Shown: positions 2,996-16,986 of the stretch, in pieces
Layout: each line of letters starts with the position of its first letter
How positions within the stretch are numbered: the first letter of the stretch is position 1
The notes under the pieces: model-generated
Told to the model about the DNA's origin: nothing
Seen by the model: the letters and a program-made list of their open reading frames with translations, nothing else
The model's database searches: none
Made by a program: the position numbers and the translations under genes
Origin: Myxococcota bacterium
GTDB taxonomy: Bacteria; Myxococcota_A; UBA796; UBA2385
Direction: 5' to 3'
Length of the DNA: 30,358 nt
Assembly (NCBI GenBank): GCA_036126975.1
Contig: JAYYRS010000489.1
Span: forward strand, 1 to 30,358

Positions 2996-3040
2996 AGATG
3001 CCTCCAGTTGCCGATGGCGCAATCAAACCTTCGCTGCACG

Positions 3041-3200: not shown

Positions 3201-4229
3201 TCATCCACCCAGGGCAGCCAGCTGCGCGAGGGCCTTGTCGTAGCGCGCCCGCCGCTGCGGCGAAAACAGCATCCCTGCATCCTCGTAGATGAACTCCCCG
3301 AACCGCGGCACATCGTCGTCGTGAAGGTCGAACCAGTGGTTGCCCGCCTTGCTGAGCTGGATCTCGGACACGTTCCAGCCGCGCTGGCGCAGCGTCTTGT
3401 GGAGGTCCCGCATCCGCCGCGGCTCCGGATGTGAGAACGCCAGGCCCAGCCGGCGCTTCTTCTTCCGGAAGCACAGGATCCCGCACACGTCCGTCACACC
3501 GCGCCAGAACTCCGCGCTGTCCGAGCCGGAAACGGAGACGATCGTGCTCAGGGCCGCCGGATCGGGGAGGTCGCGCCCGCGGAGTGTCAGGATGTGTTCC
3601 TCGACCTCACCCCGCGGGGAGAGGTGGGGTCGGTGGATGTTGAACCGGGGCCGACGCTTCCGGGTCTCCTGGATCGCCGCATCCCATCCCTCCAGGAACA
3701 TCGCACCGACCGCCGCATCCGTGGTGACGATCTGGACCTGCTCGTCGCTCCGTCGCCCCTTGCCGAAGGCGTAGCCCCAGAAATACCGCTGGAAGGGGTC
3801 TTCGCTTGGCCGCTCCGGCTCCAGCTGGAAGCGGCTGCCGTACGCCTCGACCCAGGACCGGAAGAAGGCGTGGTGCTCCGGGATGGGCTCCTTGTCGCCC
3901 GCCCAGTTGTAGAAGCTGGGGAAGGTCATCGTCAGCGGCGGCTTCTGATCTTCGCGAACGCTCGCGGCATCCGGCCAGAAGCCCAGCACCGGGGTCATGC
4001 CCTCGCGCTCCCGGATCGCCGCGTAGGAGAGCGTCCGGTGTCGAAGATGCAGGTGACTTCGGGACTCGGAGGTCGCCGCGCTGCGGTGGTACACCGTCAC
4101 CCAGTCCCCATGCTCCTTGATCGCCAGGTCGTCCCCGCGAAGCTCGGTCGTCCCGTACGGATTGCGGAGGATGACCACCTTGCAGCGGGACAGCATGTGG
4201 CGGACGAGTCGGGGCAGGGTCCAGGTCAC
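3201..4229 (-). CDS. ChuX/HutX-like domain fused to a degenerate LAGLIDADG-like domain; candidate regulator
   Basis: GTG start with GGAGG SD. N-terminal ~140 aa align by hand at about 45% identity to 16355-16843. C-terminal half has two LAGLIDADG-like helices (YFWGYAFGKG, EFWRGVTDVCG) and the tail FGEFIYEDAGM...RRARY. CDS is secure; domain calls are by eye. Confidence 0.8.
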   Translation of the reverse strand: MTWTLPRLVRHMLSRCKVVILRNPYGTTELRGDDLAIKEHGDWVTVYHRSAATSESRSHLHLRHRTLSYAAIREREGMTPVLGFWPDAASVREDQKPPLTMTFPSFYNWAGDKEPIPEHHAFFRSWVEAYGSRFQLEPERPSEDPFQRYFWGYAFGKGRRSDEQVQIVTTDAAVGAMFLEGWDAAIQETRKRRPRFNIHRPHLSPRGEVEEHILTLRGRDLPDPAALSTIVSVSGSDSAEFWRGVTDVCGILCFRKKKRRLGLAFSHPEPRRMRDLHKTLRQRGWNVSEIQLSKAGNHWFDLHDDDVPRFGEFIYEDAGMLFSPQRRARYDKALAQLAALGG

Positions 4230-4432
4230 GGAAGGCCTCCGGGCGTTTGGGTCACGGCCGCACCCTGCGTCCTATTCCAACTTCCCTCCCGATGTCGCCG
4301 TTTGGGCTCGTCCGCCGACTCGATGGCACGCGGACGGCCGCGACACCGTGGGCGCCGCACCCGCGCGGAGGGGCCCCACCAACGGCGCCCCCAGAGCGGG
4401 GTTCTCACGGCACCGGCACATCGGAAAAGTGA

Positions 4433-4461: not shown

Positions 4462-4477
4462 AGTTGCCTTCCATACG

Positions 4478-4624
4478 TCTCCCCAGGGCTTAGGGAAGCC
4501 GGTTCGAATCCGGCACGGGCCCGCCACCGTGATCGGTCAGGCTCTGTCACCAGGCCACTGGGTCGTTGACCTGGGAAGGCGACAGGGACGACGGCCGTAA
4601 GTCGGGAAACCTTCCTGGGCGAGA
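4478..4624 (+). ncRNA. Cobalamin (B12) riboswitch
   Basis: AGGGAA (4492), T-loop arm GCCGG-TTCGAAT-CCGGC, ACGG-GCCCGCCA-CCGT arm, GCCACTG...TGGGAAGGC, and 3' AAGTCGGGAAACC. Closing helix TCTCCCCAGG (4478-4487) pairs with CCTGGGCGAGA (4614-4624). Lies upstream of cbiA. Confidence 0.92.
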
Positions 4625-4867
4625 AGACCACCGGTCCTCGGGTACAGGACTGCGTCCTCCGCGTGGGTCGTGCCGGGAATCTCTGGTACGCCGCGCTCCC
4701 CGCCAGGCCGCCCACGCCTGCCGCCGGGACCCGGACCGACGCACTTCCCTCTCCGGGGCCGGTCGCCCCGAGCACCGACGCCTCGTGAACCGCAGACCCC
4801 CCATCTCCCCGCAACCGGCCGCCCCGGCCCGTCTCCTCCCCGCCCGACGGCGCGCCGAGGGCCGGTC

Positions 4868-6280
4868 GTGACGGGCCTGCCAACCATTGTCGTCGCGGGC
4901 ACCGGATCCGGCACCGGCAAGACCACGGTGGTGTGCGCCTTGGCTTGTGCGCTCGCGGACCGGGGACTGGACGTTCGGCTGTTCAAGGCCGGGCCGGACT
5001 ACCTGGATCCGACCTTCCACCAGGCGGCCCTCGGTCGGCCGTCTCGCAATCTGGATGGTTGGATGACCGGCGAGGGCGGCGTCCTCGCCACCTTCACACG
5101 GGGAACGGCCGCGCTGGAAGGACCAGGCATTGCGATCGTCGAGGGCGTGATGGGCCTGTTCGACGGCCGCTCACCGGATTCCCTCGAAGGATCCGGCGCA
5201 CAGCTCGCGCAGCTCCTTGGCGCGCCGGTCGTGCTTGTGGTGGACGCGAGCGGAATGGCCCGGTCTGCCGCTGCCGTGGTGGAAGGCTTCGCCAACCACG
5301 CCGACGGCGTGGACGTGCGCGGCGTAGTGCTGAACCGTGTCGGTTCAGCCCGGCACACGGACATCATCCGACAGGCCCTGGACCGAGCCCGGACGCCCCA
5401 CCCCGTCACCACGCTCGGGGGCCTGCCCAAGAACCACGACCTCTTCCTGCCCTCCCGCCACCTCGGGCTGATGGCCGCCCACGTGAGCGAAGCCACCCGG
5501 ACCGAGGCCGCGCGCGCCCGATGGCGTGCCGCGCTGTCACAGTGGGCGACGGAGCACATCGACCTCGACAGCCTCCTGGCCCTGGCGTCGACCGCACGTC
5601 CCCCCTCGGGGGGGGCCGACGCGCCGCGCATCCCCGTGTCCCGCGCACGCATCGGCCTGGCGATGGACGATGCCTTCCACTTCTACTACCTCGACAATCT
5701 CGACCTCTTGCGCGAGGCGGGTGCCGAGCTGGTTCCCTTCTCGCCGCTGGCCGACACCCAACTCCCCGCCAACCTGGACGGGCTCATCTTCGGCGGCGGC
5801 TACCCGGAAGAGCACGCCGCCGCCCTGGCGGAAAACCGCGACTTCCGGTCGGCGGTCCTCGAATTCGCCCGCAGCGGGCGACCCGTCTACGGCGAATGCG
5901 GCGGCCTGATGTACCTCGGCGATGCCCTCACCGACGCGCAGGGAACCCGCCACCCCATGGTCGGGGCGCTCCCCACCCTCACGGCCATGGAGCCGAAGCT
6001 GCGTTCGCTCGGCTACCGGGAGGTCACCACCACCGCAGACTCCCCCGTGGGCCCTGCGGGAACCGTGTTCCGCGGCCACGAGTTCCACTACTCCGGGCTG
6101 ACCGACGACGGTGGGTGTGCCGATGTGTATCGGTGGACGGGGCGGCGGGGGTCGGGGACCGGCGGATTCCTGCGCGGTCGGGTCCTGGGCTCCTACATCC
6201 ACGCCCACTGGGGAAGCAATCCGTCCGTCGCCGATGCCTTCGTGTCTGCATGCGCTGACGCGCGGGGGGCGGGAGCATGA
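4868..6280 (+). CDS. cbiA: Cobyrinate a,c-diamide synthase (CbiA/CobB)
   Basis: IVVAGTGSGTGKTT P-loop, FKAGPDYLD, IVEGVMGLFDG, LPSRHLGL, glutaminase GECGGLMYLG, GHEFHYS, GSYIHAHW. GTG 4868 with GAGGG SD. Confidence 0.95.
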   Translation: MTGLPTIVVAGTGSGTGKTTVVCALACALADRGLDVRLFKAGPDYLDPTFHQAALGRPSRNLDGWMTGEGGVLATFTRGTAALEGPGIAIVEGVMGLFDGRSPDSLEGSGAQLAQLLGAPVVLVVDASGMARSAAAVVEGFANHADGVDVRGVVLNRVGSARHTDIIRQALDRARTPHPVTTLGGLPKNHDLFLPSRHLGLMAAHVSEATRTEAARARWRAALSQWATEHIDLDSLLALASTARPPSGGADAPRIPVSRARIGLAMDDAFHFYYLDNLDLLREAGAELVPFSPLADTQLPANLDGLIFGGGYPEEHAAALAENRDFRSAVLEFARSGRPVYGECGGLMYLGDALTDAQGTRHPMVGALPTLTAMEPKLRSLGYREVTTTADSPVGPAGTVFRGHEFHYSGLTDDGGCADVYRWTGRRGSGTGGFLRGRVLGSYIHAHWGSNPSVADAFVSACADARGAGA

Positions 6281-6375
6281 TGCACACGGATGCCATGCCG
6301 GCTCGCTGCCGGGCCTCGGTTGCGGGCGAAACCGTCTGGCCCACGACGGCACGACGCGGAGGGCGGAACCCATGA
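6277..6375 (+). CDS. Possible 32-aa bridging mini-ORF
   Basis: ATG overlaps the cbiA stop (ATGA) with GGGAG SD; its TGA overlaps the cbiD start (ATGA). MMHTDAMPARCRASVAGETVWPTTARRGGRNP; no recognisable homology. Confidence 0.35.
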   Translation: MMHTDAMPARCRASVAGETVWPTTARRGGRNP

Positions 6376-7586
6376 GTTCGTCCCGCGTTCCCAAGGACCG
6401 CTCGAAGATGCGCACCGGATTCACCACCGGTGCCAACGCCTGCGCGGCGGCGGTCGCCGCCCTGCGCGTCCTGACCGGACACGAGCTGGATCCCTGGGAG
6501 GGCACACTGCCCGAGCTCACCGCCGACCGGTATGACACGCTCGTGGGATCCGTGACGATCGCGATCCCGAACGGCGACCGGGTCCGGTTTGCGGTGCGGA
6601 CAGCCGAGCTCGATCCGGACGCCGCCGTCCCAGTCGCCCGATGTTCGGTGATCAAGGACGGCGGAGACGATCCCGACTGCACCCACCGGGCAGAGATCTG
6701 GGCCGCGGTGCGGCTCACCGAGCGCCCGGGTGAAGTCGAACTGATCGGCGGCCCAGGCGTGGGCCAGATCACCCGGCCCGGACTCGGCCTCCCGGTGGGC
6801 GGGCCTGCCATCAACCCCGTCCCTCGGCGCAACATCACCGAGCAGCTCGCCGAGCTCCTGCCGCCGGGCGCAGGCGCTGAGGTGACCATCGGCGTCCTCG
6901 GTGGCGAGGAGATGGCCAAGAAGACCCTCAACGCACGCCTGGGCATCGTGGGCGGCATCTCCATCCTCGGCACGACGGGCATCGTGCGCCCGTACTCTAC
7001 GGCCGCGTTCCGCGCGTCCGTCAGCCAGGCCATCGATGTCGCCGGGAAGCTCGGACTGCAGGAGATCGTGGTGACGACCGGTGGTCGCTCGGAACGGTTC
7101 GGGCAGGCCCTGCGAAACGACCTGTGTGAACAGGCCTTTGTCCAGATGGGCGACTTCGTCGGCCATGCGCTCTCCCACGCTTCCCGCACCGGCATCCGTC
7201 GGATCACGATCTGCGGAATGATGGGCAAGCTGTCGAAAATGGCCGATGGCCGGACCATGACCCATGCCAAGGGCTCCGCGGTCAACATGGTGCTGCTCTC
7301 CGACCTCGCCCGGAAGGCCGGCGTTCCCGAGGAGACCTGCGCCGAGATCCTTGATGCCAACACGGGCCGCCATGTCGCCGAGCTGGTGACGGCCACGGGG
7401 CACCAGGATGCCTTCTTCGGGGAGATCTGCGAGCGCGTGCAGGTCGTCCTGCTCGACCATCTCTCCGCCCGATTCCCCGAGCCCCCCGAGCTGTGCGTCC
7501 TGTTCGTCGACTTCGGCGGAGCACTGCTGGGCCGCTGGCCGGCCCACGCCCTCACCCCCCTCTCGCAGGAGACCATCGATGCCTGA
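6372..7586 (+). CDS. cbiD: Cobalt-precorrin-5B C1-methyltransferase
   Basis: RTGFTTGANAAAA, VIKDGGDDPDCTH, GGPGVGQITRPGL, PAINPVPR, KTLNARLGIVGGISILGTTGIVRPYS. Confidence 0.95.
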   Translation: MSSSRVPKDRSKMRTGFTTGANACAAAVAALRVLTGHELDPWEGTLPELTADRYDTLVGSVTIAIPNGDRVRFAVRTAELDPDAAVPVARCSVIKDGGDDPDCTHRAEIWAAVRLTERPGEVELIGGPGVGQITRPGLGLPVGGPAINPVPRRNITEQLAELLPPGAGAEVTIGVLGGEEMAKKTLNARLGIVGGISILGTTGIVRPYSTAAFRASVSQAIDVAGKLGLQEIVVTTGGRSERFGQALRNDLCEQAFVQMGDFVGHALSHASRTGIRRITICGMMGKLSKMADGRTMTHAKGSAVNMVLLSDLARKAGVPEETCAEILDANTGRHVAELVTATGHQDAFFGEICERVQVVLLDHLSARFPEPPELCVLFVDFGGALLGRWPAHALTPLSQETIDA

Positions 7587-8256
7587 GACCACGGGAGACA
7601 TGCGCCAGATGACCGGCACCGGACGCCGCATCGAAGACAGCAGCTTCGACATCGTCAACCGGGAGGCGTGGCCCCACGACTTCGGGGAGGCCCACTGGGA
7701 GGTGGTCCGTCGCATCATCCACGCGACGGCCGATTTCGAGTACAAGCACCTCACGCGATTCTCCAAGGATGCGATCGACCGTGGCGCGCAGGCCTTCGTC
7801 GACGGGGCACCGCTCTACGTCGACGTCAAGATGATCCGGGTCGGGCTCAACGCCCGGCGCCTGGACCACTACGGCTGCACGGTCCATTGCTATGTGAGCG
7901 ACGAAGACGTCATCACCCAGGCCAAGGCCGAGAACTCCACGCGGTCCGCGGTCGGGGTGCGCAAGGCGTGGCAGCAGGGACTGCTGGAGGGCGGGATCGT
8001 CGCGGTCGGCAATGCGCCCACCGCCCTGCTCGAACTCGTCCGATTGATCCGGGAGGAGGGCGTGCGGCCCGCCCTGGTGGTGGGAATGCCCGTGGGCTTC
8101 GTCAATGCCGCGGAGAGCAAGGAGGAGCTGATCGAGCTCGAACGGGACGGCATCGAGGTGCCCTGGGTGATCACCCGAGGACGGAAGGGCGGCAGCACCG
8201 TCGTGGTGTCTGCGCTGCATGCCTTCATGTCCATTGCCGCCGGTGACCTCCGTTGA
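7579..8256 (+). CDS. cbiC: (Cobalt-)precorrin-8 methylmutase (CbiC/CobH)
   Basis: IEDSSF, RRIIHATADF, AVGNAPTAL, VGMPVGFVNAAESKE, GRKGGS. Confidence 0.95.
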   Translation: MPETTGDMRQMTGTGRRIEDSSFDIVNREAWPHDFGEAHWEVVRRIIHATADFEYKHLTRFSKDAIDRGAQAFVDGAPLYVDVKMIRVGLNARRLDHYGCTVHCYVSDEDVITQAKAENSTRSAVGVRKAWQQGLLEGGIVAVGNAPTALLELVRLIREEGVRPALVVGMPVGFVNAAESKEELIELERDGIEVPWVITRGRKGGSTVVVSALHAFMSIAAGDLR

Positions 8257-9488
8257 GTGTCACCATCATCGGAATCGGCACCGGGGCCGGGCTCGGTGCA
8301 GACGCATCGTCGGTCATCGCCGGCGCCGGCCTGCTGATCGGCGGGACCCGCCAGCTCGACCTGGCGGCCGAGCACGCACCCGATGCTGCCCGCTGGGACC
8401 TGACGGGCCGGCTCAAGGAGATCGCGCCCACCGCCGCCGAAGCGGTCTCCCAGGGCACGTCCGTCGTCGTGCTGGCCAGCGGGGATCCGATGTTCTACGG
8501 GGTCGGCAGCTACCTGGTGGGGCGCCTCGCAGCCGTCGGCATCGAGGCACGGGTGCTCCCCGCGCCCAGCGCCATCGCGGTGGCTGCTGCCCGTTTCGGA
8601 CTCAAGTGGAGCGACGCCCACGTCATCTCCGGGCACGGCCGACCGCTGCCCGACCTCGCCACGCTGCTCCATCGGCACGGCAAGCTCGCGATCCTCACCG
8701 ACGCCACCAACACGCCCGCCGAGATCGGGCGGCGCCTCACCGAGGCCGGCATCTCCGAGGGCACCGCCCATGTCGCCGAGGACCTGGGTTCCGCATCGGA
8801 ACGGACCCGGGTCGTGCCGATCCCGGCGCTCGGAGCACTCACCGACACCAGCGCGCTGAACGTGGTGCTCCTGACCGCGCCGCGGAGACACATCCCCACC
8901 ATCCCCTTCGACTCCGACGACGCATTCGATAAGAAGATGCCCAAAAAGGGGCTCATCACCAAGCGCGAGATCCGCGTACTGAGCCTCGCGGCCCTGGGCG
9001 TGGGAGCGGGCGACGTCTGCTGGGACATCGGTGCCGGGAGCGGCGCGGTCTCCATCGACATGGCGCACTGCGGGGCCTCAAGCGTGTGGGCGGTCGAGAA
9101 GAACCAGGATGGCTGTGAGATCGTCTCCGGCAACGTCGCTCGACACCGGGCCACTGCGGTGCGCGTCATCCACGCCAAGGCTCCCGACGGGCTCGCGGAC
9201 CTCCCCGACCCCGACCGGGTGTTCATCGGCGGCTCTGGTGGCAACCTGACCGCGCTCATCCATCTCATCATGGCGCGACTGCGGGTGGGCGGGACGCTGG
9301 TCATCAATCTGGCCACCGTCGAGAACCTCGCGGAGGCCCTGACCGCCCTCCGTGCGTGTGGCGCCCCCCACGAGAGCACCCAGGTCCAGGTGTCCCGTTC
9401 GAAGACCATCCTCGGTCGGCTGACGCGATTCGAGGCGCTCAACCCCATCACCATCATCCGGGCGACCCGCCCCGAGGAGCTCCGGTGA
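8253..9488 (+). CDS. cbiET: Bifunctional precorrin-6Y C5,15-methyltransferase (CbiE-CbiT fusion, CobL-type)
   Basis: N-terminal VLASGDPMFYGVG; C-terminal ITKREIR, WDIGAGSGAVS, PDRVFIGGSGG. TTG start overlaps the cbiC stop. Confidence 0.93.
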   Translation: MSVTIIGIGTGAGLGADASSVIAGAGLLIGGTRQLDLAAEHAPDAARWDLTGRLKEIAPTAAEAVSQGTSVVVLASGDPMFYGVGSYLVGRLAAVGIEARVLPAPSAIAVAAARFGLKWSDAHVISGHGRPLPDLATLLHRHGKLAILTDATNTPAEIGRRLTEAGISEGTAHVAEDLGSASERTRVVPIPALGALTDTSALNVVLLTAPRRHIPTIPFDSDDAFDKKMPKKGLITKREIRVLSLAALGVGAGDVCWDIGAGSGAVSIDMAHCGASSVWAVEKNQDGCEIVSGNVARHRATAVRVIHAKAPDGLADLPDPDRVFIGGSGGNLTALIHLIMARLRVGGTLVINLATVENLAEALTALRACGAPHESTQVQVSRSKTILGRLTRFEALNPITIIRATRPEELR

Positions 9489-10309
9489 TCGACGACGCGC
9501 TCAAGGCGCAGCCTCCTCGGGAGGGCATCGGCACCCTGTGGGGCGTCAGTGTCGGACCGGGCGCGCCAGACCTGATCACCATGCGGGCCCATCGCGTGCT
9601 CACCTCCGCCCCCGTGATTGCATGGCCTGCATGCAAGGCCGGCGCCACGTCCTACGCCTGGCGGATCATCCGCGAGTACATCGATCCGGACACGCAGCAG
9701 ACACTCGGGCTGGTCTTTCCCATGAACAAGGACTGGTCGGCACTGGTTCCGGCGTGGCGGGACTCGGCGGAGCAGATCCTGCGCCATCTCCACGCAGGGC
9801 GAGACGTCGCGTTCATCACGACCGGGGACGCGATGCTCTACAGCACCTTCCTTCACGTCTGGGAGGTGCTCCGCGAGATGGACCCCTCGGTTCCGGTCCA
9901 GGTGATTCCCGGCGTGAGCAGCATCAACGCAGCGAGCGCCCTGACCGGCGTACCGCTCGGGCAGGGAGACGAGCGCGTCGCGATCGTGCCGGCGACCTGG
10001 CACGAATCGCGTCTTCGGACGCTGATCACCGACACCGACACCGTGGTCCTCATGAAGGTGGCCCGGGTCCTGCCCCAGGTCATCACCCTGCTCGAAGAGA
10101 CCGGTCGCATCGATGAGGCGGTCCTCATCAGCCGCGGTACCGCCGAGCAGCAGATCGTCACGCGGGACCTCGCGCGCTTCCGCGACCGACGGCTCAACTA
10201 CCTCACGCTGGTGCTCGTCGCACGAGACCGCCCATTCCTCGCACGGCTTCGCTCCGAGGCCGAGTCAGACGCCCGTTTCAAGATCAATCGACAGGGAAGC
10301 CGTCCATGA
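9485..10309 (+). CDS. cbiL: (Cobalt-)precorrin-2 C20-methyltransferase (CbiL/CobI)
   Basis: LWGVSVGPGAPDLITMRA, VFPM, AFITTGDAMLYSTF, IPGVSS, VVLMKV. GTGA overlap with cbiET. Confidence 0.92.
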   Translation: MIDDALKAQPPREGIGTLWGVSVGPGAPDLITMRAHRVLTSAPVIAWPACKAGATSYAWRIIREYIDPDTQQTLGLVFPMNKDWSALVPAWRDSAEQILRHLHAGRDVAFITTGDAMLYSTFLHVWEVLREMDPSVPVQVIPGVSSINAASALTGVPLGQGDERVAIVPATWHESRLRTLITDTDTVVLMKVARVLPQVITLLEETGRIDEAVLISRGTAEQQIVTRDLARFRDRRLNYLTLVLVARDRPFLARLRSEAESDARFKINRQGSRP

Positions 10310-11190
10310 CCGTTCCTTCCACCGTCCACTTCGTCGGCGCCGGCCCTGGTGATCCCGAGCTGATCACGGTCAAGGGAGCCCGCCTGCTCCGCGAGGCCGA
10401 CTACGTCCTGTATACGGGCTCACTCGTGCCGCGTGAACTCTTCGAGGATCTGCCAGGGCAGGTCGAGGACAGCAAGGGCCTGGACATCCATCAGATCGTC
10501 GAACGCCTCGCCACCCACGCCCAGGCCGGTCGACAGGTGGTCCGCGTCCACACCGGAGACCCCGCCGTCTACGGTGCCGTGCAGGAGCAGCGGGCCCGGC
10601 TCCTCGTCGCCGGGATTCCGTCCGCCGTCGTACCGGGCGTCACCAGCGCGCTGGCTGCGGCCGCGGCCGTCAACGCCGAGCTGACCCTGCCGGACCTGAC
10701 CCAGACCATCGTCATCAGTCGGACCGAAGGGCGCACGGCGATGCCTGAAGGGGAGAAGCTCGCGGACCTGGCCCGCCTCGGCAATGCCTCGCTGTGTCTC
10801 TACCTGTCCGCCACCCTCACCGAGAAGGTCACCCGCGAGCTGATCGCGGGCGGACGGAGCCCTGACACGCCGGTCGCGGTGGTCCAGTACGCCTCGATGG
10901 CGGACAAGCAGCAGATCGTCCGATGCACCCTCGAGACCCTGGCCGACGAGATGCGCGCCGCCGGCATCCGCGCACAGGCGATGCTGCTCATCGGCCCCGC
11001 GCTGGACCCCACGATCCGAGAGCAGGTCGGGCGTTTCGACAGCCGGCTCTACGCCCGGGACTTCTCCCACCGGTTCCGCAAGGCCGGAGACGGGGACCGG
11101 GAGAGCCAGCCACGAACGCCACGGGGTAGCCGCTTCGAGGCCACCTCCACCCTCGTCCCCCACGCTGCCACCGGAGGCGCAGAGAAATGA
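10306..11190 (+). CDS. cbiF: (Cobalt-)precorrin-4 C11-methyltransferase (CbiF/CobM)
   Basis: VHFVGAGPGDPELITVKG, LYTGSLV, RVHTGDPAVYGAVQEQ, ELTLPDLTQT, SRLYARDFSH. Confidence 0.95.
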   Translation: MTVPSTVHFVGAGPGDPELITVKGARLLREADYVLYTGSLVPRELFEDLPGQVEDSKGLDIHQIVERLATHAQAGRQVVRVHTGDPAVYGAVQEQRARLLVAGIPSAVVPGVTSALAAAAAVNAELTLPDLTQTIVISRTEGRTAMPEGEKLADLARLGNASLCLYLSATLTEKVTRELIAGGRSPDTPVAVVQYASMADKQQIVRCTLETLADEMRAAGIRAQAMLLIGPALDPTIREQVGRFDSRLYARDFSHRFRKAGDGDRESQPRTPRGSRFEATSTLVPHAATGGAEK

Positions 11191-12137
11191 CATCTGAAGC
11201 TCCTGACACCCCGCGCGGCAAGCTGCTGCTGATCGGCTTCGGCCCTGGCGCCCACGAACACCTGACCTACCGCGCCCGTGCCGCGATCGCGGAGGCCGAG
11301 GTGGTCATCGGCTACAACACCTACATCAAGCTCATCGCAGACCTGCTGGAGGGCAAGGAGGTCCACCGGAAGGGCATGAGCGAAGAGCTCGACCGGGTCC
11401 ATCTCGCCTACGACATGGCCATGGCCGGCCGCAAGGTCGCCCTGATCAGCTCCGGTGACATCTGCGTCTATGGCATGGCCGGACCCGCGATGGAGGTGCT
11501 GACGGAGCGCGGCTGGACCGGGCTTGATGACCCGCGGGTCGAGGTCGAGGTGGTGCCGGGGATCAGCGCAGTCAATGCCATCGCCAGCCTCGTCGGCGCA
11601 CCGCTGACCCACGACTACTGCACCATCTCGCTGTCCGACCTGCTGACCCCGTGGCCGGTCATCGAGCGCCGGGTGATCGCCGCAACGGAGGGAGACTTCG
11701 TGGTGGCGCTCTACAACCCGCAGAGCAAGCGCCGGACCTGGCAGCTGCCCAAGACCGTGGAGCTGATGCTCGCGGGGGGACGGAGCCCGAAGACACCGGT
11801 GGCCATCGTCAAAAGCGCCTACCGGCGTCGCCAGAACATCGTCCTGACCACTCTCGACGACCTCTGCAACCACAAGATCGGGATGCTGACCACCGTGCTC
11901 GTGGGCAACTCCAACACGCGATTCGCGGCGGGCCGGATGGTGACGCCCCGGGGGTACTCCAACAAGTATGACGTGGGCAGCGGCCTGGTCCGCGCCGGCC
12001 AGGAGCCACTGCGGAGTCTCAAACTCGATGAAGACGGCAACCCGATCGGCGGTGAGCTGGAAGAGAAGACCAACCGGGTCTACCCGGGTGCGACCGAGCA
12101 GCAGCCGGACGGCTCCCTGCCCGTGGACGTGCCATGA
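11187..12137 (+). CDS. cbiH: Precorrin-3B/cobalt-factor III C17-methyltransferase (CbiH/CobJ)
   Basis: IGFGPG, VIGYNTY, LISSGD..VYGMAG, GAPLTHDYCTISLSDLLTPW, LYNPQS, MVTPRGY. Confidence 0.95.
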   Translation: MTSEAPDTPRGKLLLIGFGPGAHEHLTYRARAAIAEAEVVIGYNTYIKLIADLLEGKEVHRKGMSEELDRVHLAYDMAMAGRKVALISSGDICVYGMAGPAMEVLTERGWTGLDDPRVEVEVVPGISAVNAIASLVGAPLTHDYCTISLSDLLTPWPVIERRVIAATEGDFVVALYNPQSKRRTWQLPKTVELMLAGGRSPKTPVAIVKSAYRRRQNIVLTTLDDLCNHKIGMLTTVLVGNSNTRFAAGRMVTPRGYSNKYDVGSGLVRAGQEPLRSLKLDEDGNPIGGELEEKTNRVYPGATEQQPDGSLPVDVP

Positions 12138-13246
12138 GCCTCGTCAGCGGCCTCGACGACATCGCGGTCATCACCCTGACCCGGCAGGGGATCGACGTCG
12201 CGGCGTCTCTCCAGGAGACCCTTCCCGCGGAGGTCACGGTCTACATCTCGGAAAAGTATGACGACGAGGCCCCCAAGGGCTGGACCCGATTCCCCCGTCG
12301 CATCTACCCCCTGGTCGATGAGATCTGGCCGCGCCACGAGGCGCTGATCTTCGTGATGGCCGCGGGCATCGTCGTCCGGGCCGTCGCCAAACACGTCCAG
12401 AGCAAGCTCTACGACCCCGGCGTCGTCGTCATGGACATCAAGGGCAAGTTCGCGGTGGCGCTGTGCAGTGGCCACCTTGGCGGCGCGAATGAACTGTGCA
12501 GGCTCATCGAGGAGCGGACCGGCGCGATCTCCGTGGTGACGACCGGCACCGACGTCAACAACACGCTCGCCCCTGACGTGCTCGCGAAGCAGATCGGCGC
12601 GCGGGTCGACGATTGGGAGCCCCTCAAGCTGGTCAGTGGCGCGCTCGTGGACACCCTCCCGGTTGGCGTCTTCGCAGAGCCAGGGATCGACGTCGGCGAC
12701 CTGGGCCCGTATGCCCGGAAGAAGGTCATCCAGGTGAAGGACCCCGGCGAGCTTCCCGAATACCGTGCCGCCGTCGTCGTCAGCCATCGGCTTCTCGCCG
12801 ACCCCGGCATCCCCACCATGTGGCTCCGACCCCCGGTCCTCGTCGTCGGCGTGGGGTGCAACCGCGGGACCTCTGAGGAGGAAATCGGCAGCGCCGTGGA
12901 GGCCGTGCTCACCGAAAACGACCTGGCCCTTTCGTCCGTCGTCCGCCTCGCCACCATCGAGAAGAAATCCGACGAACCCGGGCTGCTGGCCGCCGCTGCC
13001 GAACGGGACTGGCCGCTCTGGTGGTACCGCAACGACCAGATCAACGACCAGGCCCCCCCGTTCCCTGGCCGCAGCGACGTGGTCTTCAAGTATGTCGGGG
13101 TCTACGGCGTGTCGGAACCCGCCGCGATGCTGGCCGCCGGAACCGAACGCCTGCTCGTGGCGAAGCAGAAGCGCGGCAACCTGACCGTCAGCGTCGCGCG
13201 CATCGCCGGCGAGCCCCTCGCACCCGCCGGAGTGGTCACACCATGA
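12134..13246 (+). CDS. cbiG: Cobalt-precorrin-5A hydrolase
   Basis: MAAGIVVRAVA, KLYDPGVVVMD, SGHLGGANEL, VTTGTD, VGVGCNRG, GVYGVSEPAA. Confidence 0.95.
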   Translation: MSLVSGLDDIAVITLTRQGIDVAASLQETLPAEVTVYISEKYDDEAPKGWTRFPRRIYPLVDEIWPRHEALIFVMAAGIVVRAVAKHVQSKLYDPGVVVMDIKGKFAVALCSGHLGGANELCRLIEERTGAISVVTTGTDVNNTLAPDVLAKQIGARVDDWEPLKLVSGALVDTLPVGVFAEPGIDVGDLGPYARKKVIQVKDPGELPEYRAAVVVSHRLLADPGIPTMWLRPPVLVVGVGCNRGTSEEEIGSAVEAVLTENDLALSSVVRLATIEKKSDEPGLLAAAAERDWPLWWYRNDQINDQAPPFPGRSDVVFKYVGVYGVSEPAAMLAAGTERLLVAKQKRGNLTVSVARIAGEPLAPAGVVTP

Positions 13247-14436
13247 GTCGTGCTCTCGTCCTGATCGGTCATGGCAGCCGCCGGGCTGGCGGAAACAAGA
13301 AGGTCCTCGGCCTGGCAGAGCGCGTGAGCGAGCGCGCGGGACTGCCTGTGTTTCCCGGCTTTCTCGAGCTCGCCCAACCCCATGCCTCCGAGGCCATCGA
13401 CCGCGCCGTCGCGTCGGGCGCAGACGAGGTCGTGATCGTGCCAGCCGTTCTCCTGGCTGCCGGCCACGCCAAGAACGATGTGCCACTCCTGGTCAACCAG
13501 GCCCGCGGTCGGCATCCGGGCGTGCAGTTCTTCGCCGGACGACCCCTGGGGGTGAACGCCGGCATGCTGGCTGCGCTGCAGGACCGCCTGACCGCCGCCC
13601 GGCAGGAGCTCGGCCCCTGCGACGACGACCGGGTCGCCGTGCTCCTGCTGGGGCGCGGCAGCTCCGACCCGGATGCAAACGCCGACATCTTCAAGATCGG
13701 CCGCCTGCTCACCGAACGCCAGGGCCTGCTCGGCCATGAGGTCGGGTTCATCGGGGTCACGCAGCCCGATGTCGAGGCCGCCTTCAAGACGCTGGCAGCG
13801 CGCCGGCCCCGGCAGGTCGTGGTGATGCCCTACCTGCTCTACCCCGGAGTGCTGGTCGAGCGGGTCCGCAAGAAGGTCGCGGACCTCGCTGCGCTCTACC
13901 GGCGGCTCGATGTGCAGGTCACCGAGCCTGTCGGAACCCACCCTGCGGTCCTCGATGTCCTCCTGGAGCGCGCAGACGAGTCGGTCAACGGTACCGGGGG
14001 CATGTCCTGCGACACCTGCAAGTACCGGGCTCCGCTGCCGGGATTCCAGCACGAGGTGGGCGGCCTCCAGGCGCTCCGCAAGGCCAGGGCCCATGTGGAG
14101 ATCCCGGCTTCACCCGAGGTCAAGCCCCACGCGCACACCCCGCCCGTCAAGCACGTGCTCGTCTGTGTCAACCGAGACTGCGTCGACCGGGGGAGCCTCA
14201 CCACGCTCGACCGCCTCCGCCGGCGGATCCGGGCAGACCGACTCGGCAAGCGCATCCAGACCACGCGCGTGATGTGCATGGGGCGATGCGGGGAGGGACC
14301 GGCCGTCTGTGTGTACCCCGATGGCGTCTGGTACCGGAAGGTATCCGCAGAGGACGCCGACCTGATCTACGACCAGCACATCTGCGACAACCGCCCCGTC
14401 GGACACCTGATCGACCAGGTGATCGGCGGAACTTGA
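13243..14436 (+). CDS. cbiX: Long-form sirohydrochlorin cobaltochelatase CbiX fused to a thioredoxin-like [2Fe-2S] ferredoxin
   Basis: GHGSRR, FLELAQP, AAGHAKND, second domain GRGSSDPDAN, MSCDTCKYR Cys motif, then C-terminal CVNRDC...CMGRC..GP..VYPDGVWY. Confidence 0.92.
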   Translation: MSRALVLIGHGSRRAGGNKKVLGLAERVSERAGLPVFPGFLELAQPHASEAIDRAVASGADEVVIVPAVLLAAGHAKNDVPLLVNQARGRHPGVQFFAGRPLGVNAGMLAALQDRLTAARQELGPCDDDRVAVLLLGRGSSDPDANADIFKIGRLLTERQGLLGHEVGFIGVTQPDVEAAFKTLAARRPRQVVVMPYLLYPGVLVERVRKKVADLAALYRRLDVQVTEPVGTHPAVLDVLLERADESVNGTGGMSCDTCKYRAPLPGFQHEVGGLQALRKARAHVEIPASPEVKPHAHTPPVKHVLVCVNRDCVDRGSLTTLDRLRRRIRADRLGKRIQTTRVMCMGRCGEGPAVCVYPDGVWYRKVSAEDADLIYDQHICDNRPVGHLIDQVIGGT

Positions 14437-14455
14437 GTTCCAAAGGAGTTTTTCC

Positions 14456-14833
14456 ATGGCTTGCTACGAAGTCGCCTCGCTCCGGCTGGCGCTGCACAAC
14501 CTGCTCGGCGACCGGCCCGCCCACGAACGAACCCATGAAGAAGAGGAGCTCGGAAGCAAGCTGTCCGAGGACGGTCCGCTGAAGGCGCTCGCCAACGCCA
14601 CGAGCCTCGCCCAGATCCGCGCGGCCCTGGACGCGGCCGGACTGGAGCTCGAACAGCGGGTGGCGGACATGCCGGAGGATGCACCCCAGCTGGGCTACTG
14701 GCGCTCCCTGGTCGTCACCGTCAAGCGCACCCAGCGCGACCTGGCTCGGATGGCATCCGACCTGGAGCAGTACTACCGTGACCTGGACCTCGTCCACGAC
14801 ACCCTCCACGAGATCTTTCCCGAGAGTGACTGA
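14456..14833 (+). CDS. DUF3209-like helical protein
   Basis: AAAGGAG SD. N-terminus MACYEVASLRLALHNLLG resembles DUF3209 (M[SA]CHEI.ALRL) as I recall it; needs an HMM check. Confidence 0.7.
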   Translation: MACYEVASLRLALHNLLGDRPAHERTHEEEELGSKLSEDGPLKALANATSLAQIRAALDAAGLELEQRVADMPEDAPQLGYWRSLVVTVKRTQRDLARMASDLEQYYRDLDLVHDTLHEIFPESD

Positions 14834-14836
14834 GCC

Positions 14837-15517
14837 ATGGCGAAGACAAAATGGGCGACGGTGACGGGACACGAGGACCTCGGTGGCGGGGTCCACCGCA
14901 TCCACTGTCTCGCAGACGAGCCTCTCCACCACGTGGCAGGCAACTACGTGATCCTCCGGAGCACCGTCCCGAACCCCGACAAGCCCGGTGAGGTGCTCAA
15001 GAAGGCGTACTCGATATCCAGCGCGCCCGATGCGGAATCGCCCCAGCGATTCCACTTCACCATCGTCGACGTGGGCGCGATGAGCGCGTGGCTTGCGAGC
15101 CAGCGCGTCGACGGGCGCGTGGAGTTCTCCGGCCCATGGGGAAGGCGGTTCCGGGCCCAGCCCGATGACCCAGACGGTCCCGTCCACCTGTTCGCGACGG
15201 GCACGGGGTTCTCCCCGGTCGGGGCGATGGCCATCACGCGGAGTCGTTCCGGGGCCACGCCGGTCGGCGTCTGGTGGCAGACGGAGCACACCTACGACGA
15301 TGGGGTCCTCGCCGCACTGAAGCAGGACCCGCGGTTTTCGGTCACCGTCGGTGCCCACGTTGCCGATGCCGTACCGGCCGAGCCCGAGGCCCTGTACTTC
15401 CTCGCCGGGGATGGCGCCGTCATCATTCCGCTGTGCGAGCGACTCGAGCAGGCCGGCGTGCCCGACGCGCACATCCGAACCGAGTTCTTCTTCAACAAGC
15501 CCGCCAAGCCGACATGA
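14837..15517 (+). CDS. Ferredoxin-NADP+ reductase-like FAD-binding oxidoreductase
   Basis: GNY, KAYSISS (RxYS-type), GAMS, GPWG, FATGTGFSP, C-terminal TEFF. Confidence 0.85.
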   Translation: MAKTKWATVTGHEDLGGGVHRIHCLADEPLHHVAGNYVILRSTVPNPDKPGEVLKKAYSISSAPDAESPQRFHFTIVDVGAMSAWLASQRVDGRVEFSGPWGRRFRAQPDDPDGPVHLFATGTGFSPVGAMAITRSRSGATPVGVWWQTEHTYDDGVLAALKQDPRFSVTVGAHVADAVPAEPEALYFLAGDGAVIIPLCERLEQAGVPDAHIRTEFFFNKPAKPT

Positions 15518-16362
15518 CGAGACCATCGCCAGGCGGGCCGGGCTGCGAGCCCGGCGTGGTGTATCTGGTCGGGGCGGGCCCGGGGGACCCGGGCCTGTTG
15601 ACCTGCCGTGCCCTCCGCCTCCTGGAGACCGCCGAGGTGGTCCTCCATGATGCACTCGTCACGGAAGAGGTCCTCGCCCTGTCGCCCGGGGAGCGGGTCA
15701 ACGTCGGCAAGCGGTCCGAGCACCACCTCGCCCGGCAGGGCGGGATCGCAGCGATGATGGTGACACAGGCCCGGCAGGGCCGACGCGTCGTCCGTCTCAA
15801 GGGCGGAGACCCCGGCATCTTCGGTCGCGGAGGGGAGGAGATGCAGTCCCTTCGCGCCGCCAACGTGCCCTACGAGGTTGTGCCGGGCGTCACCTCCGCA
15901 CTCGCTGCCAGTGCGCTGTCGGGGATCACCCTCACCCACCGCAAGCTCTCCGGCGCGGTCACGCTCATGACGGGTCATGCCGCCGCCAGGACCGACCGGG
16001 GCATCCTCCGGTACGAGGTCCTGGCAGAACTCGACCACACGCTGGTCGTGCTGATGGGTCTGGCGCGCCTGCCGGTCATCGCAGACCGGCTGCTCGCAGC
16101 CGGTCGGGACCCCGAGACACCCGTCGCCGTCGTCCAGGCCGCCTCTACCGCAGGTCAGCGGACCATTCGGGGCACGCTCCGCAGCATCTCTGCGGTCGCG
16201 GAGGCGGCAGGGATCGCGAGTCCGGCCACGGTCATCATCGGTCCAGTGGCCGCGTTGTGCGATGAACTGGCCTGGCGCCCGGACCGACTCGGTCCCGAAC
16301 CCTACCCCCCGGGCGCACGCGTTCATCTTCCCCAGCCGGATGACGAGGCCGCCGATGGCTGA
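15514..16362 (+). CDS. cobA: Uroporphyrinogen-III C-methyltransferase (SUMT), canonical motifs
   Basis: VYLVGAGPGDPGLLT, VGKR, VVRLKGGDPGIFGRGGEE, VPGVTS, LTHR, LVVLMG. ATGA overlap with the FNR-like gene. Confidence 0.93.
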   Translation: MTRPSPGGPGCEPGVVYLVGAGPGDPGLLTCRALRLLETAEVVLHDALVTEEVLALSPGERVNVGKRSEHHLARQGGIAAMMVTQARQGRRVVRLKGGDPGIFGRGGEEMQSLRAANVPYEVVPGVTSALAASALSGITLTHRKLSGAVTLMTGHAAARTDRGILRYEVLAELDHTLVVLMGLARLPVIADRLLAAGRDPETPVAVVQAASTAGQRTIRGTLRSISAVAEAAGIASPATVIIGPVAALCDELAWRPDRLGPEPYPPGARVHLPQPDDEAADG

Positions 16363-16843
16363 TCGACCCCGCCGGACCACTCTCGGGTCCCTGATCGAGA
16401 GCATGCTGCCCCGCTGCGGTCCCATCACCCTCCGCAACCCGTTCGGTGTGATCGAGCTTCGGGGAACGGATCTCTACCTCCGGCGGGGACGGACGCTCAG
16501 CCTCTACCACCGGGAGGCCCAGCGTGGAGAGGCGCGCAGCCACGCGCATCTCTACGTCTCCGGCCTGTCCTGGGCCCGCGTTGTCGAGCGGGATGGCATC
16601 ACGCCTCGCCTCTCGTTCTGGCCCGACGCACGAGAGGAGGAGGAGAAGGCGCCCCTGACCATCGCCTTCCCGCGGTTCTACGACTGGTCGCGCGTTCCCA
16701 TCCCGGACAATCGGGCCCACTTCGCGGCCTGGGTGTCGAAGCACGGACGCACGTTCATCCTCGAGCCGGATCCACCGGTTGCGCGCTCCCGTCGCGCTGC
16801 AGCGGGCTTTCCCGGCAGCGACCAGGTCGGAGGGCCGGGGTGA
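16355..16843 (+). CDS. Stand-alone ChuX/HutX-like protein (162 aa), paralog of the N-domain of 3201-4229
   Basis: 8-nt overlap with the cobA stop. Shares LRNP[YF]G..ELRG, YHR, RSH.HL, TP.L.FWPD, PLT..FP.FY.W and PIP...W...[YH]G..F.LEP with 3201-4229. Confidence 0.8.
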   Translation: MADRPRRTTLGSLIESMLPRCGPITLRNPFGVIELRGTDLYLRRGRTLSLYHREAQRGEARSHAHLYVSGLSWARVVERDGITPRLSFWPDAREEEEKAPLTIAFPRFYDWSRVPIPDNRAHFAAWVSKHGRTFILEPDPPVARSRRAAAGFPGSDQVGGPG

Positions 16844-16986
16844 CACCCCACCGGCACGCCCGCTTCCTGTCCCTCTCCACCGCTGCGCACCCTGCAGCCC
16901 GCCGCCAGCGGCGTGGCGGGGCCGGGCTCCGCGGCGCCCCCACGGTCCGGATGGCAAGGCCTCCAACCATTACGGCGGTCCGATGA
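16840..16986 (+). CDS. Possible 48-aa bridging mini-ORF
   Basis: GTG overlaps the upstream TGA (GTGA 16840-16843); its TGA overlaps the next ATG (ATGA 16983-16986). Arg/Ala-rich; no recognisable homology. Confidence 0.3.
   Translation: MTPHRHARFLSLSTAAHPAARRQRRGGAGLRGAPTVRMARPPTITAVR

What the first reader, a model, noticed from the sequence alone, without database searches (positions are those of the whole stretch)
3201..4229. ChuX/HutX-like domain fused to a catalytically dead LAGLIDADG: candidate tetrapyrrole-sensing regulator
Seen: residues ~1-140 are paralogous to a protein inside the cbi operon. The rest carries two LAGLIDADG-like helices, F-W-G-Y-A-F-G-K-G and W-R-G-V-T-D-V-C-G, followed by basic strands (RKKKRR). 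The catalytic Asp position holds K157 and C249. The gene is divergent from the B12 riboswitch/cbi operon. Established: ChuX/HutX proteins bind heme in the cytosol; WhiA is a transcription factor built on a LAGLIDADG scaffold lacking catalytic residues. Inference: an independent domestication of a homing endonuclease into a DNA-binding regulator with a tetrapyrrole-sensing input. I do not recall this architecture being described.
Basis: partly seen in the sequence, partly recalled or inferred. Interest (0 to 1): 0.92.

Follow-up and report, generated by a model that had tools for sequence, protein, structure and literature searches.

The report
Heme-carrier-like domain fused to dead LAGLIDADG
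A real, conserved bacterial gene next to a vitamin B12 operon joins a tetrapyrrole-carrier-type domain to a homing-endonuclease fold that has lost its cutting residues. The second half belongs to a function-unknown family that is otherwise built into the B12 operons of salt-loving archaea, so the fusion gives a new clue to what that family does.

Summary
Gene 3201-4229(-) encodes a 342-aa protein.

- **N-half:** residues 4-141 are 48% identical to a small ORF inside the cbi operon (16355-16843). The AlphaFold model (pLDDT 95) matches only HemS/ChuX/HutX-type proteins (Z 11.0-5.8, next 4.1). No sequence model recognises it.
- **C-half:** the model (pLDDT 93.5) is a double LAGLIDADG fold (Z 15.0; 22 LAGLIDADG chains at Z>=6, then 4.3). 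K157 and C249 sit at the two catalytic positions.
the C-half belongs to Pfam LAGLIDADG_4, by synteny the haloarchaeal "cobalamin cluster protein" HVO_B0055. That gene sits between ferredoxin and cbiX in 80/80 haloarchaeal loci. C249 and C253 are invariant in 60/60 sequences.
- **Accessory status:** fusion and paralog co-occur in a second Myxococcota cobalamin cluster. Both are absent from a sister genome with the same operon, which also lacks CbiJ. They are therefore accessory, not the missing reductase.

The mechanism is unresolved. I favour a tetrapyrrole-responsive nucleic-acid-binding regulator (about 0.4) over a non-DNA carrier or redox partner of ferredoxin/CbiX (about 0.33). This scan noted the haloarchaeal family before on other DNA; the bacterial fusion is new.

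The parts
3201..4229 (-). Whole gene: 342-aa fusion protein (P0001); stop codon at 3201-3203
   Evidence: The same architecture occurs in 9+ metagenomic/MAG orthologues.
3807..4229 (-). N-domain, residues 1-141: HemS/ChuX/HutX-type fold
   Evidence: Model pLDDT 94.9. VIA Z 11.0 to 3fm2, 9.2 to 3na2, 7.6 to HutX, 7.0 to 2ph0, 5.8 to ChuS, then 4.1. Foldseek and ESM Atlas neighbours carry ChuX_HutX/LFE_1968-like/HemS.
4047..4067 (-). Conserved E55-x3-H59-x-H61 motif of the N-domain family; candidate ligand-binding residues (inference)
   Evidence: E55 and H61 are invariant and H59 is at least 90% conserved in 29 sequences (A2).
3204..3797 (-). C-domain, residues 145-342: double LAGLIDADG fold, Pfam LAGLIDADG_4 (PF26411)
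   Evidence: Precomputed PF26411. Model pLDDT 93.5 with alpha-beta-beta-alpha-beta-beta-alpha twice. Z 15.0 to I-Tsp061I and 13.0 to WhiA.
3756..3782 (-). LAGLIDADG-type motif 1, FWGYAFGKG (150-158); K157 at the catalytic position
   Evidence: Family column 157: D 37, S 11, K 5, R 4 of 60.
3471..3506 (-). LAGLIDADG-type motif 2, WRGVTDVCG (242-250), plus C253; C249 at the catalytic position
   Evidence: C249, G250 and C253 are invariant in 60/60 family members.
3450..3467 (-). Basic beta-hairpin tip RKKKRR (255-260). A second basic tip, RKRRPR, lies at residues 190-195.
   Evidence: The C-domain pI is 8.9-9.7 in the fusions and 4.5 in haloarchaeal members.
4236..4240 (-). Shine-Dalgarno GGAGG, 6 nt before the GTG start
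   Evidence: GAGGAG is also present upstream in orthologues.
4469..4632 (+). Cobalamin riboswitch heading the divergent cbi operon
   Evidence: RF00174, 87.7 bits, E 1.3e-20.
4670..17768 (+). cbi operon: cbiA, cbiD, cbiC, cbiET, three methyltransferases, cbiG, cbiX-[2Fe-2S], DUF3209, FNR-like, cobA, N-domain paralog, SUMT paralog
16355..16843 (+). Stand-alone paralog of the N-domain (P0014, 162 aa) inside the operon
   Evidence: 48% identity, E 7e-35. A 67%-identical orthologue sits at the same operon position in a second Myxococcota MAG that also has the fusion.

Best explanation
SHOWN. The gene encodes a two-domain protein. A HemS/ChuX/HutX-fold domain (1-141) is tethered by a linker of about 5 residues to a monomeric double-LAGLIDADG domain (145-342). 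The C-domain belongs to family LAGLIDADG_4 and lacks both canonical catalytic acids (K157, C249). The gene travels with a stand-alone paralog of its N-domain that is encoded inside the cobalt-early cbi operon. The pair is an optional add-on to that operon. INFERRED, favoured mechanism (about 0.4). The protein is a one-component regulator. The N-domain binds a tetrapyrrole or corrin-pathway intermediate, perhaps as a HemS-like pseudo-dimer with the operon-encoded paralog. This is suggested because ChuX is a dimer that mimics two-domain HemS/ChuS (my own knowledge of the ChuX structure work, not tested here). Ligand binding would change how the basic LAGLIDADG saddle, with its Arg/Lys-rich hairpin tips RKRRPR and RKKKRR, binds a long asymmetric DNA (or RNA) site. 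That would tune cobalamin or tetrapyrrole genes alongside the B12 riboswitch. The invariant Cys249/Cys253 pair at the former active site would act as a redox or metal/cofactor-sensing element rather than a nuclease centre.
For: Folds of both halves. Every solved LAGLIDADG match returned is a homing endonuclease (free-standing, intein-borne or engineered), a maturase or the transcription factor WhiA. The C-domain is consistently basic in the fusions (pI 8.9-9.7, net +3 to +8) while the N-domain is near neutral in orthologues. The basic hairpin tips occur in both half-domains. The gene is its own transcription unit, divergent from cob operons in the window, L001/L002 and L003, and unlinked in L103 and L104. 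That pattern is typical of regulators. The gene is dispensable: sister genome G282 (96% complete) has the syntenic riboswitch-cbi operon without the fusion or the paralog. Bacterial stand-alone relatives sit in non-cobalamin contexts, namely acyl-CoA dehydrogenase/NMO and GST-like genes. This is expected of a regulator family that has spread to other pathways.
Against: No DNA binding has been shown. No operator-like motif is shared between the window's upstream region and those of four orthologues. In haloarchaea the family member is co-directional between ferredoxin and cbiX in 80/80 loci; in the one locus read in detail, N. pharaonis, its frame overlaps both neighbours. It occurs once as a ferredoxin fusion. 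Its hairpin there is FKSSSGT, not basic. The strictly invariant residues are Cys, His, Trp and Phe, not typical base-contacting residues. The operon already has a B12 riboswitch. Basic residues could equally bind the eight carboxylates of a corrin precursor.
Confidence: 0.4

Rival explanations
1. Non-DNA pathway accessory. The LAGLIDADG_4 domain is a protein- or cofactor-handling module that works with ferredoxin and the Fe-S cobaltochelatase CbiX. Its Cys249/Cys253 site would bind a metal or cobalt-tetrapyrrole, or act as a redox dithiol. The fused HemS/ChuX-like domain and its in-operon paralog would carry labile corrin intermediates to or from it.
For: Haloarchaeal members lie between ferredoxin and cbiX, co-directional, in 80/80 species loci, and the frames overlap both neighbours in N. 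pharaonis. A natural ferredoxin-LAGLIDADG_4 fusion exists (P0129). The Cys pair and G250 are invariant in 60/60 sequences, while the motif-1 position varies. The haloarchaeal hairpin is non-basic. The paralog sits inside the operon directly after cobA in two genomes. The same CbiX-Fd/DUF3209 module is present in both lineages. PMC8305020 reports strict coupling to cbiTLFGH1H2 and protein abundance changing with the other cobalamin enzymes. Other bacterial members lie next to thiol/redox genes, a GST-like gene and NMO.
Against: None of the solved LAGLIDADG-fold matches returned here has a role outside nucleic-acid cleavage or binding. The fusion is transcribed separately, outside riboswitch control, and is unlinked to cob genes in 2 of 5 lineages. 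It is dispensable in a sister genome with the same operon. The C-domain is strongly basic in bacteria.
Confidence: 0.33
2. Missing pathway enzyme. LAGLIDADG_4 substitutes for cobalt-precorrin-6A reductase (CbiJ) or CbiD. HVO_B0055 is among the four unassigned cluster genes that PMC8305020 lists as gap candidates, and an earlier follow-up in this scan made the same suggestion.
For: No CbiJ was found in the window's genome, which is 69% complete. Haloarchaea lack CbiD and CbiJ (PMC8305020). The conserved Cys pair and ferredoxin partnership fit redox chemistry.
Against: G282 (96% complete) has the same operon, also lacks CbiJ, and has no LAGLIDADG_4 or N-domain homologue. The window has a normal CbiD, E 3e-86. 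There is no nucleotide- or SAM-binding fold. Relatives occur in non-cobalamin contexts.
Confidence: 0.05
3. RNA-binding factor of the maturase type. It would act post-transcriptionally, for example on the cbi leader or mRNA.
For: The bI3 maturase is among the structural matches. The C-domain is basic. The gene is adjacent to a riboswitch leader in the window.
Against: No riboswitch or other Rfam element lies next to the orthologues in L001, L003 or L106. No introns are present.
Confidence: 0.07
4. Active or recently decayed selfish homing endonuclease that happens to lie here.
For: The LAGLIDADG fold.
Against: Both catalytic acids are replaced. There is no intron or intein host. Full-length orthologues are conserved at 68-78% identity with a fixed two-domain architecture. 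Codon-position GC matches the host genes.
Confidence: 0.02

Closest known systems
Pfam LAGLIDADG_4 (PF26411); by synteny Haloferax volcanii HVO_B0055, Natronomonas pharaonis NP_1110A, 'cobalamin biosynthesis/operon protein'
   Same: The C-half is a member. It carries the precomputed PF26411 hit. Profile searches retrieve hundreds of haloarchaeal proteins at E about 1e-55 to 1e-64. It shares 13 invariant residues, including C249, G250 and C253. It is also linked to a cobalt-early cbi cluster containing CbiX, an Fe-S protein and DUF3209.
   Different: It is about 25% identical. It is fused to a 140-aa HemS/ChuX-like domain and is basic rather than acidic. Motif 1 has Lys where most haloarchaea keep Asp. 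The gene is transcribed divergently or unlinked, not embedded between ferredoxin and cbiX.
WhiA (DUF199), a transcription factor on a nuclease-dead LAGLIDADG scaffold
   Same: Monomeric double-LAGLIDADG fold without catalytic acids (Z 13.0 to 8dy9_I and 12.0 to 3hyi). A domesticated, non-mobile chromosomal gene.
   Different: There is no C-terminal HTH domain and no sequence similarity. The extra domain is N-terminal and of a ligand-carrier type. The structural match is no better than to true endonucleases (Z 15.0).
Monomeric LAGLIDADG homing endonucleases (I-Tsp061I, I-DmoI, I-SceI, PI-PfuI)
   Same: Best structural matches over the whole C-domain (Z 12.9-15.0 by VIA for I-Tsp061I, PI-PfuI and I-DmoI; I-SceI by Foldseek, probability 1.00, TM 0.62). 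Both LAGLIDADG helices end at the position of the catalytic residue.
   Different: K157 and C249 replace the catalytic Asp/Glu. There is no intron or intein context. The protein is under conservation as a two-domain cellular protein.
ChuX/HutX/HemS cytoplasmic heme-binding proteins and the LFE_1968-like/Ava_4353 group (PDB 3fm2, 3na2, 2ovi, 5exv)
   Same: Same fold over 112-124 residues (Z 11.0, 9.2, 7.6, 7.0). The nearest ESM Atlas clusters carry PF06228, PF22684 and PF05171.
   Different: No Pfam or PDB sequence model detects it, even at E<=10. It has its own conserved E-x3-H-x-H motif. The context is B12 synthesis, not heme uptake. More distant stand-alone relatives have no tetrapyrrole context.

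Membership tests
LAGLIDADG homing endonucleases | Two alpha-beta-beta-alpha-beta-beta-alpha half-domains packed through two LAGLIDADG helices | tested here: met
   Model pLDDT 93.5 with this exact element order. 22 LAGLIDADG chains at Z>=6, top 15.0, next unrelated 4.3.
LAGLIDADG homing endonucleases | Acidic residue (Asp/Glu) at position 8 of each motif to bind the catalytic metals | tested here: not met
   K157 and C249. Cys is invariant in 60/60 family members.
LAGLIDADG homing endonucleases | Encoded in an intron, an intein or a mobile free-standing context | tested here: not met
   Free-standing chromosomal gene with conserved full-length orthologues and host-like codon GC.
Pfam LAGLIDADG_4 (PF26411) | Match to the family model | tested here: met
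   PF26411 is precomputed for this protein and all orthologues. The local Pfam copy lacks the model. A profile of the C-half retrieves 353 proteins, and 119 of the 120 listed carry PF26411.
Pfam LAGLIDADG_4 (PF26411) | Family-invariant R-G-x4-C-G-x2-C and W-F...D...Y...R residues | tested here: met
   R243, G244, C249, G250, C253, G262, W299, F300, D304, Y315 and R326 are invariant in 60 sequences.
Pfam LAGLIDADG_4 (PF26411) | Position between ferredoxin and cbiX inside the cbi operon (haloarchaeal hallmark) | tested here: not met
   80/80 haloarchaeal loci have it. Here the gene is divergent from the operon, and CbiX is fused to its own [2Fe-2S] domain.
WhiA | C-terminal HTH_WhiA DNA-binding domain | tested here: not met
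   No Pfam hit of any kind. The C-terminus is a single helix.
ChuX_HutX / HemS (Pfam PF06228, PF05171, PF22684) | Shared fold | tested here: met
   Z 11.0 to 5.8 for five superfamily members, then 4.1. Foldseek probability 1.00. Atlas TM 0.73.
ChuX_HutX / HemS (Pfam PF06228, PF05171, PF22684) | Match to a family sequence model | tested here: not met
   No hit at E<=10 for the protein and none for 29 family members. PDB profile search negative.
ChuX_HutX / HemS (Pfam PF06228, PF05171, PF22684) | Binds heme or another tetrapyrrole | not testable with these tools
   Only conserved E55/H59/H61 and operon context suggest it.
One-component transcription regulators | Sequence-specific DNA binding and a conserved operator | tested here: inconclusive
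   No k-mer or local alignment is shared above shuffles between the window's upstream region and four orthologous ones. Divergence and GC differences (0.36-0.68) limit the power of this test.

The most novel reading that the evidence does not exclude
The LAGLIDADG saddle has been re-used for something other than nucleic acid. In the whole LAGLIDADG_4 family, an invariant Cys-Gly-x-x-Cys site at the former nuclease centre would hold a cobalt-tetrapyrrole, a metal or a redox dithiol and work with ferredoxin and CbiX. In this bacterium a fused HemS/ChuX-like carrier, with an operon-encoded twin, would hand it the intermediate. That would be the first non-nucleic-acid function among the LAGLIDADG-fold proteins matched here, and a new accessory step in cobalt-early B12 synthesis.
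Probability: 0.3. Interest if true: 0.85.

Novelty: new variant of a known kind. Interest (0 to 1): 0.66.

Why it matters
LAGLIDADG_4 (HVO_B0055 by synteny) is one of four unassigned genes in the haloarchaeal B12 cluster (PMC8305020). The full-text searches made here found no paper that discusses its function.

This bacterial gene is a natural fusion that ties the family to a tetrapyrrole-carrier fold. It therefore supplies a testable ligand hypothesis.

The comparison with a sister genome shows that the protein is optional. That argues against it being the long-sought CbiJ replacement.

Whichever reading proves right would be a new use of a homing-endonuclease scaffold: a tetrapyrrole-gated LAGLIDADG regulator, or a LAGLIDADG fold working on cofactors. 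Because no B12 riboswitch was detected next to the orthologous clusters examined, it could also bear on how such clusters are controlled; whether this extends to archaea was not tested.

Tried and rejected
- **Local family libraries.** The local Pfam and NCBIfam copies gave no hit. The family name came only from precomputed annotations, and PF26411 is not in the local library.
- **PDB sequence and profile searches.** Negative for both halves.
- **Full-length model.** A merged full-length alignment (A4) placed the C-only sequences on the N-domain. I therefore modelled the halves separately, and the inter-domain geometry is unknown. The ESM Atlas full-length model is poor (pLDDT 0.55).
- **Operator search.** No motif is shared with orthologous upstream regions. 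The promoter/terminator scan found nothing, and the repeats in the intergenic region were only short pairs of the kind often due to chance.
- **Unavailable genomes.** Genomes behind L001, L012 and L013 are not held, so whole-genome CbiJ and DUF3209 checks there failed.
- **Literature.** No paper mentions 'LAGLIDADG_4'; HVO_B0055 and LAGLIDADG-with-cobalamin searches returned only PMC8305020 or irrelevant papers.
- **Rejected: CbiJ or CbiD substitute.**
- **Rejected: active homing endonuclease.**
- **Set aside.** The weak multi-repeat hits P0055 and P0059 do not look like true homologues.

Full report
**1. The gene and its surroundings**

The window is a 30.4-kb contig of about 70% GC. It belongs to a 69%-complete Myxococcota MAG.

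ORF 3201-4229(-) has the codon-position GC of a real gene (0.67/0.49/0.88). It starts at a GTG with GGAGG 6 nt upstream and encodes 342 aa.

A cobalamin riboswitch lies at 4469-4632(+), 240 nt away on the other strand (RF00174, 87.7 bits). The riboswitch is followed by these genes:
- cbiA, cbiD, cbiC and cbiET
- three precorrin methyltransferases
- cbiG
- a CbiX fused to a thioredoxin-like [2Fe-2S] ferredoxin
- DUF3209
- an FNR-like protein
- cobA
- a small ORF at 16355-16843
- a second SUMT-like gene

**2.

tblastn of the protein against the window aligns residues 4-141 with 16379-16777(+) at 48% identity, E 7e-35.

The two motifs are FWGYAFGKG (150-158) and WRGVTDVCG (242-250). RKKKRR occupies residues 255-260.

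**3. N-half**

No Pfam, NCBIfam or PDB sequence model detects it, alone or as a 29-sequence profile. Relatives in the 5.8-billion-protein collection carry no Pfam annotation.

AlphaFold2 on that alignment gives pLDDT 94.9. The structural matches are as follows:
- **Foldseek against PDB:** Ava_4353 (3fm2), 3na2, ChuX, HutX, HemS, ChuS and PhuS at probability 1.00.
- **Exhaustive VIA search:** Z 11.0, 9.2, 7.6, 7.0 and 5.8 for five members of that superfamily. The next hit is 4.1.
- **ESM Atlas:** the nearest clusters carry ChuX_HutX, LFE_1968-like and HemS, TM 0.73.

The ChuX/HutX-like call is therefore right at fold level. It is not a sequence-level membership.

The family conserves E55, H59 and H61. 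Three more distant stand-alone relatives (P0027, P0089, P0066; 36-38% identical to the N-domain) lie in unrelated, partly mobile contexts. Only the P0014-type subgroup follows a tetrapyrrole methylase.

**4. C-half**

Precomputed annotation assigns PF26411, LAGLIDADG_4, to this protein and all orthologues. AlphaFold2 on a 60-sequence alignment gives pLDDT 93.5, with the alpha-beta-beta-alpha-beta-beta-alpha unit twice.

Foldseek and VIA return only LAGLIDADG proteins at the top:
- I-Tsp061I, Z 15.0
- PI-PfuI, Z 14.9
- WhiA, Z 13.0
- I-DmoI, Z 12.9
- I-SceI and bI3 maturase, Foldseek probability 1.00

In all, 22 chains reach Z>=6 before a drop to 4.3.

The motif helices end at K157 and C249, which are the positions of the catalytic acids. 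Across 60 family members the motif-1 position is D (37), S (11), K (5) or R (4). The motif-2 position is Cys in 60/60, followed by invariant G250 and C253.

Loss of canonical nuclease chemistry is an inference from the established role of those acids.

**5.

A profile of the C-half retrieves 353 proteins. Nearly all are haloarchaeal proteins of about 222 aa named 'cobalamin biosynthesis/operon protein'.

In Natronomonas pharaonis the gene overlaps a ferredoxin gene upstream and cbiX downstream. In 80 of 80 haloarchaeal species loci the order is Fd > LAGLIDADG_4 > CbiX, flanked upstream by CbiG (77 loci) and downstream by DUF3209 (76 loci) and, in 57, a PQQ-like gene. All are co-directional.

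By gene order this is HVO_B0055. [quoted passage not shown] They report that it is strictly coupled to cbiTLFGH1H2, and it is one of four candidates for the missing CbiD and CbiJ steps.

One metagenomic haloarchaeal protein is a continuous ferredoxin-LAGLIDADG_4 fusion (P0129).

Earlier agents of this scan described the haloarchaeal gene on other DNA.

**6. Distribution of the fusion**

Orthologues of 331-344 aa at 68-78% identity come from marine metagenomes and Myxococcota MAGs. Their contexts differ:
- **L001/L002 and L003:** the gene is divergent from an operon that starts with the orthologue of the window's second SUMT-like gene, followed by a GHMP kinase, CobQ and CobD (then an aminotransferase/CobU gene in L001). 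No riboswitch is detectable there.
- **The L001 contig (L106):** it also holds the CbiG / CbiX-[2Fe-2S] / DUF3209 / FNR / cobA block. A 67%-identical orthologue of the stand-alone paralog lies directly after cobA.
- **L103 and L104:** the neighbours are unrelated to cobalamin.

In 300 sampled Myxococcota genomes neither half was found.

G282 is a 96%-complete genome of the same family. It has the syntenic operon: riboswitch, cobO, cbiA through cbiG, cbiX-Fd, DUF3209, FNR and cobA. It lacks the fusion, and a BluB-CobT gene stands where the paralog is here. CbiJ is not found in G282, in two further family members, or in the window's own genome.

The fusion and its paralog are therefore a paired, optional addition to this operon type. 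They are not the CbiJ substitute.

**7. Other bacterial members**

Both stand-alone bacterial members examined are outside cobalamin clusters:
- P0015 is 41% identical with pI 9.8. It ends an operon of acyl-CoA dehydrogenases and an NMO-type flavoprotein.
- P0046, from Manganitrophaceae, follows a GST-like gene.

**8. Mechanism**

*For a regulator:*
- All solved LAGLIDADG matches returned are nucleic-acid proteins.
- The C-domain is basic in all fusions (pI 8.9-9.7), with Arg/Lys-rich hairpin tips in both half-domains.
- The gene has a separate, often divergent transcription unit.
- It is dispensable.
- Bacterial relatives sit in varied contexts.

*For a non-DNA accessory:*
- The haloarchaeal gene is embedded in the operon and overlaps both neighbours in the one locus read in detail.
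- A ferredoxin fusion exists.
- The Cys pair is invariant, and the haloarchaeal hairpin is non-basic (FKSSSGT).
- The paralog lies inside the operon.

I found no conserved operator, but the power of that test is low. I put the tetrapyrrole-responsive regulator at about 0.4 and the carrier or redox accessory at about 0.33. The remainder is split between an RNA-binding role, the enzyme-gap role and a selfish element.

A heterodimer of the N-domain with the paralog, mimicking two-domain HemS, is an attractive but untested element of either model.

**9. Novelty**

The fold family is catalogued in Pfam. The haloarchaeal gene is flagged in one paper as unassigned. The literature searches made here returned nothing about the fusion.

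It is a new variant of a known kind: a domesticated, nuclease-dead LAGLIDADG protein. It also has real potential to reveal a new function for the fold.

Noticed in passing
window 13243-15517 and whole genome: CbiX is fused to a thioredoxin-like [2Fe-2S] ferredoxin and followed by DUF3209 and an FNR-like protein. No CbiJ (PF02571) was found in this genome or in three genomes of the same family, one of which (G282) has the syntenic operon. The precorrin-6A reduction step is unassigned in this operon type.
   Followed up: partly
window 16779-17768; L001 8662-9447; L003 3728-4513: The second SUMT-like methylase directly follows the stand-alone paralog in the window, with overlapping frames. Its 60-61% identical orthologue is the divergent neighbour of the fusion gene in two other lineages. 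The HemS/ChuX-like domain and this methylase paralog therefore keep company in different arrangements.
   Followed up: partly
L102 1168-2889 (G282): In the sister genome a nitroreductase(BluB)-CobT fusion occupies the operon slot where the window has the HemS/ChuX-like paralog. There cobO sits between the riboswitch and cbiA.
   Followed up: partly
window 579-2057(-) and 2057-3022(-): Two sizeable ORFs (492 and 321 aa) with good coding GC lie downstream of the fusion gene on the same strand. They have no Pfam hit and are not conserved next to the orthologues.
   Followed up: partly
L001 9448-10000 vs L003 4514-5100: A block of about 55 nt at the methylase-operon end of the intergenic region is conserved between these two relatives (local score 25 against a shuffle maximum of 15). 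No Rfam family matches. It may be a leader or operator of that cob operon.
   Followed up: no
P0129 (metagenomic haloarchaeal protein, 295 aa): A natural in-frame fusion of the Fer4_15 ferredoxin with LAGLIDADG_4. These are two separate, adjacent genes in the 80 haloarchaeal loci examined.
   Followed up: partly
window 16355-16843 and L106 5570-6064: The stand-alone paralogs share a conserved C-terminal tail (P-V-x-R-S-R-R-x-x-A-G-F-P-G-S) that the fusion's N-domain lacks.
   Followed up: no
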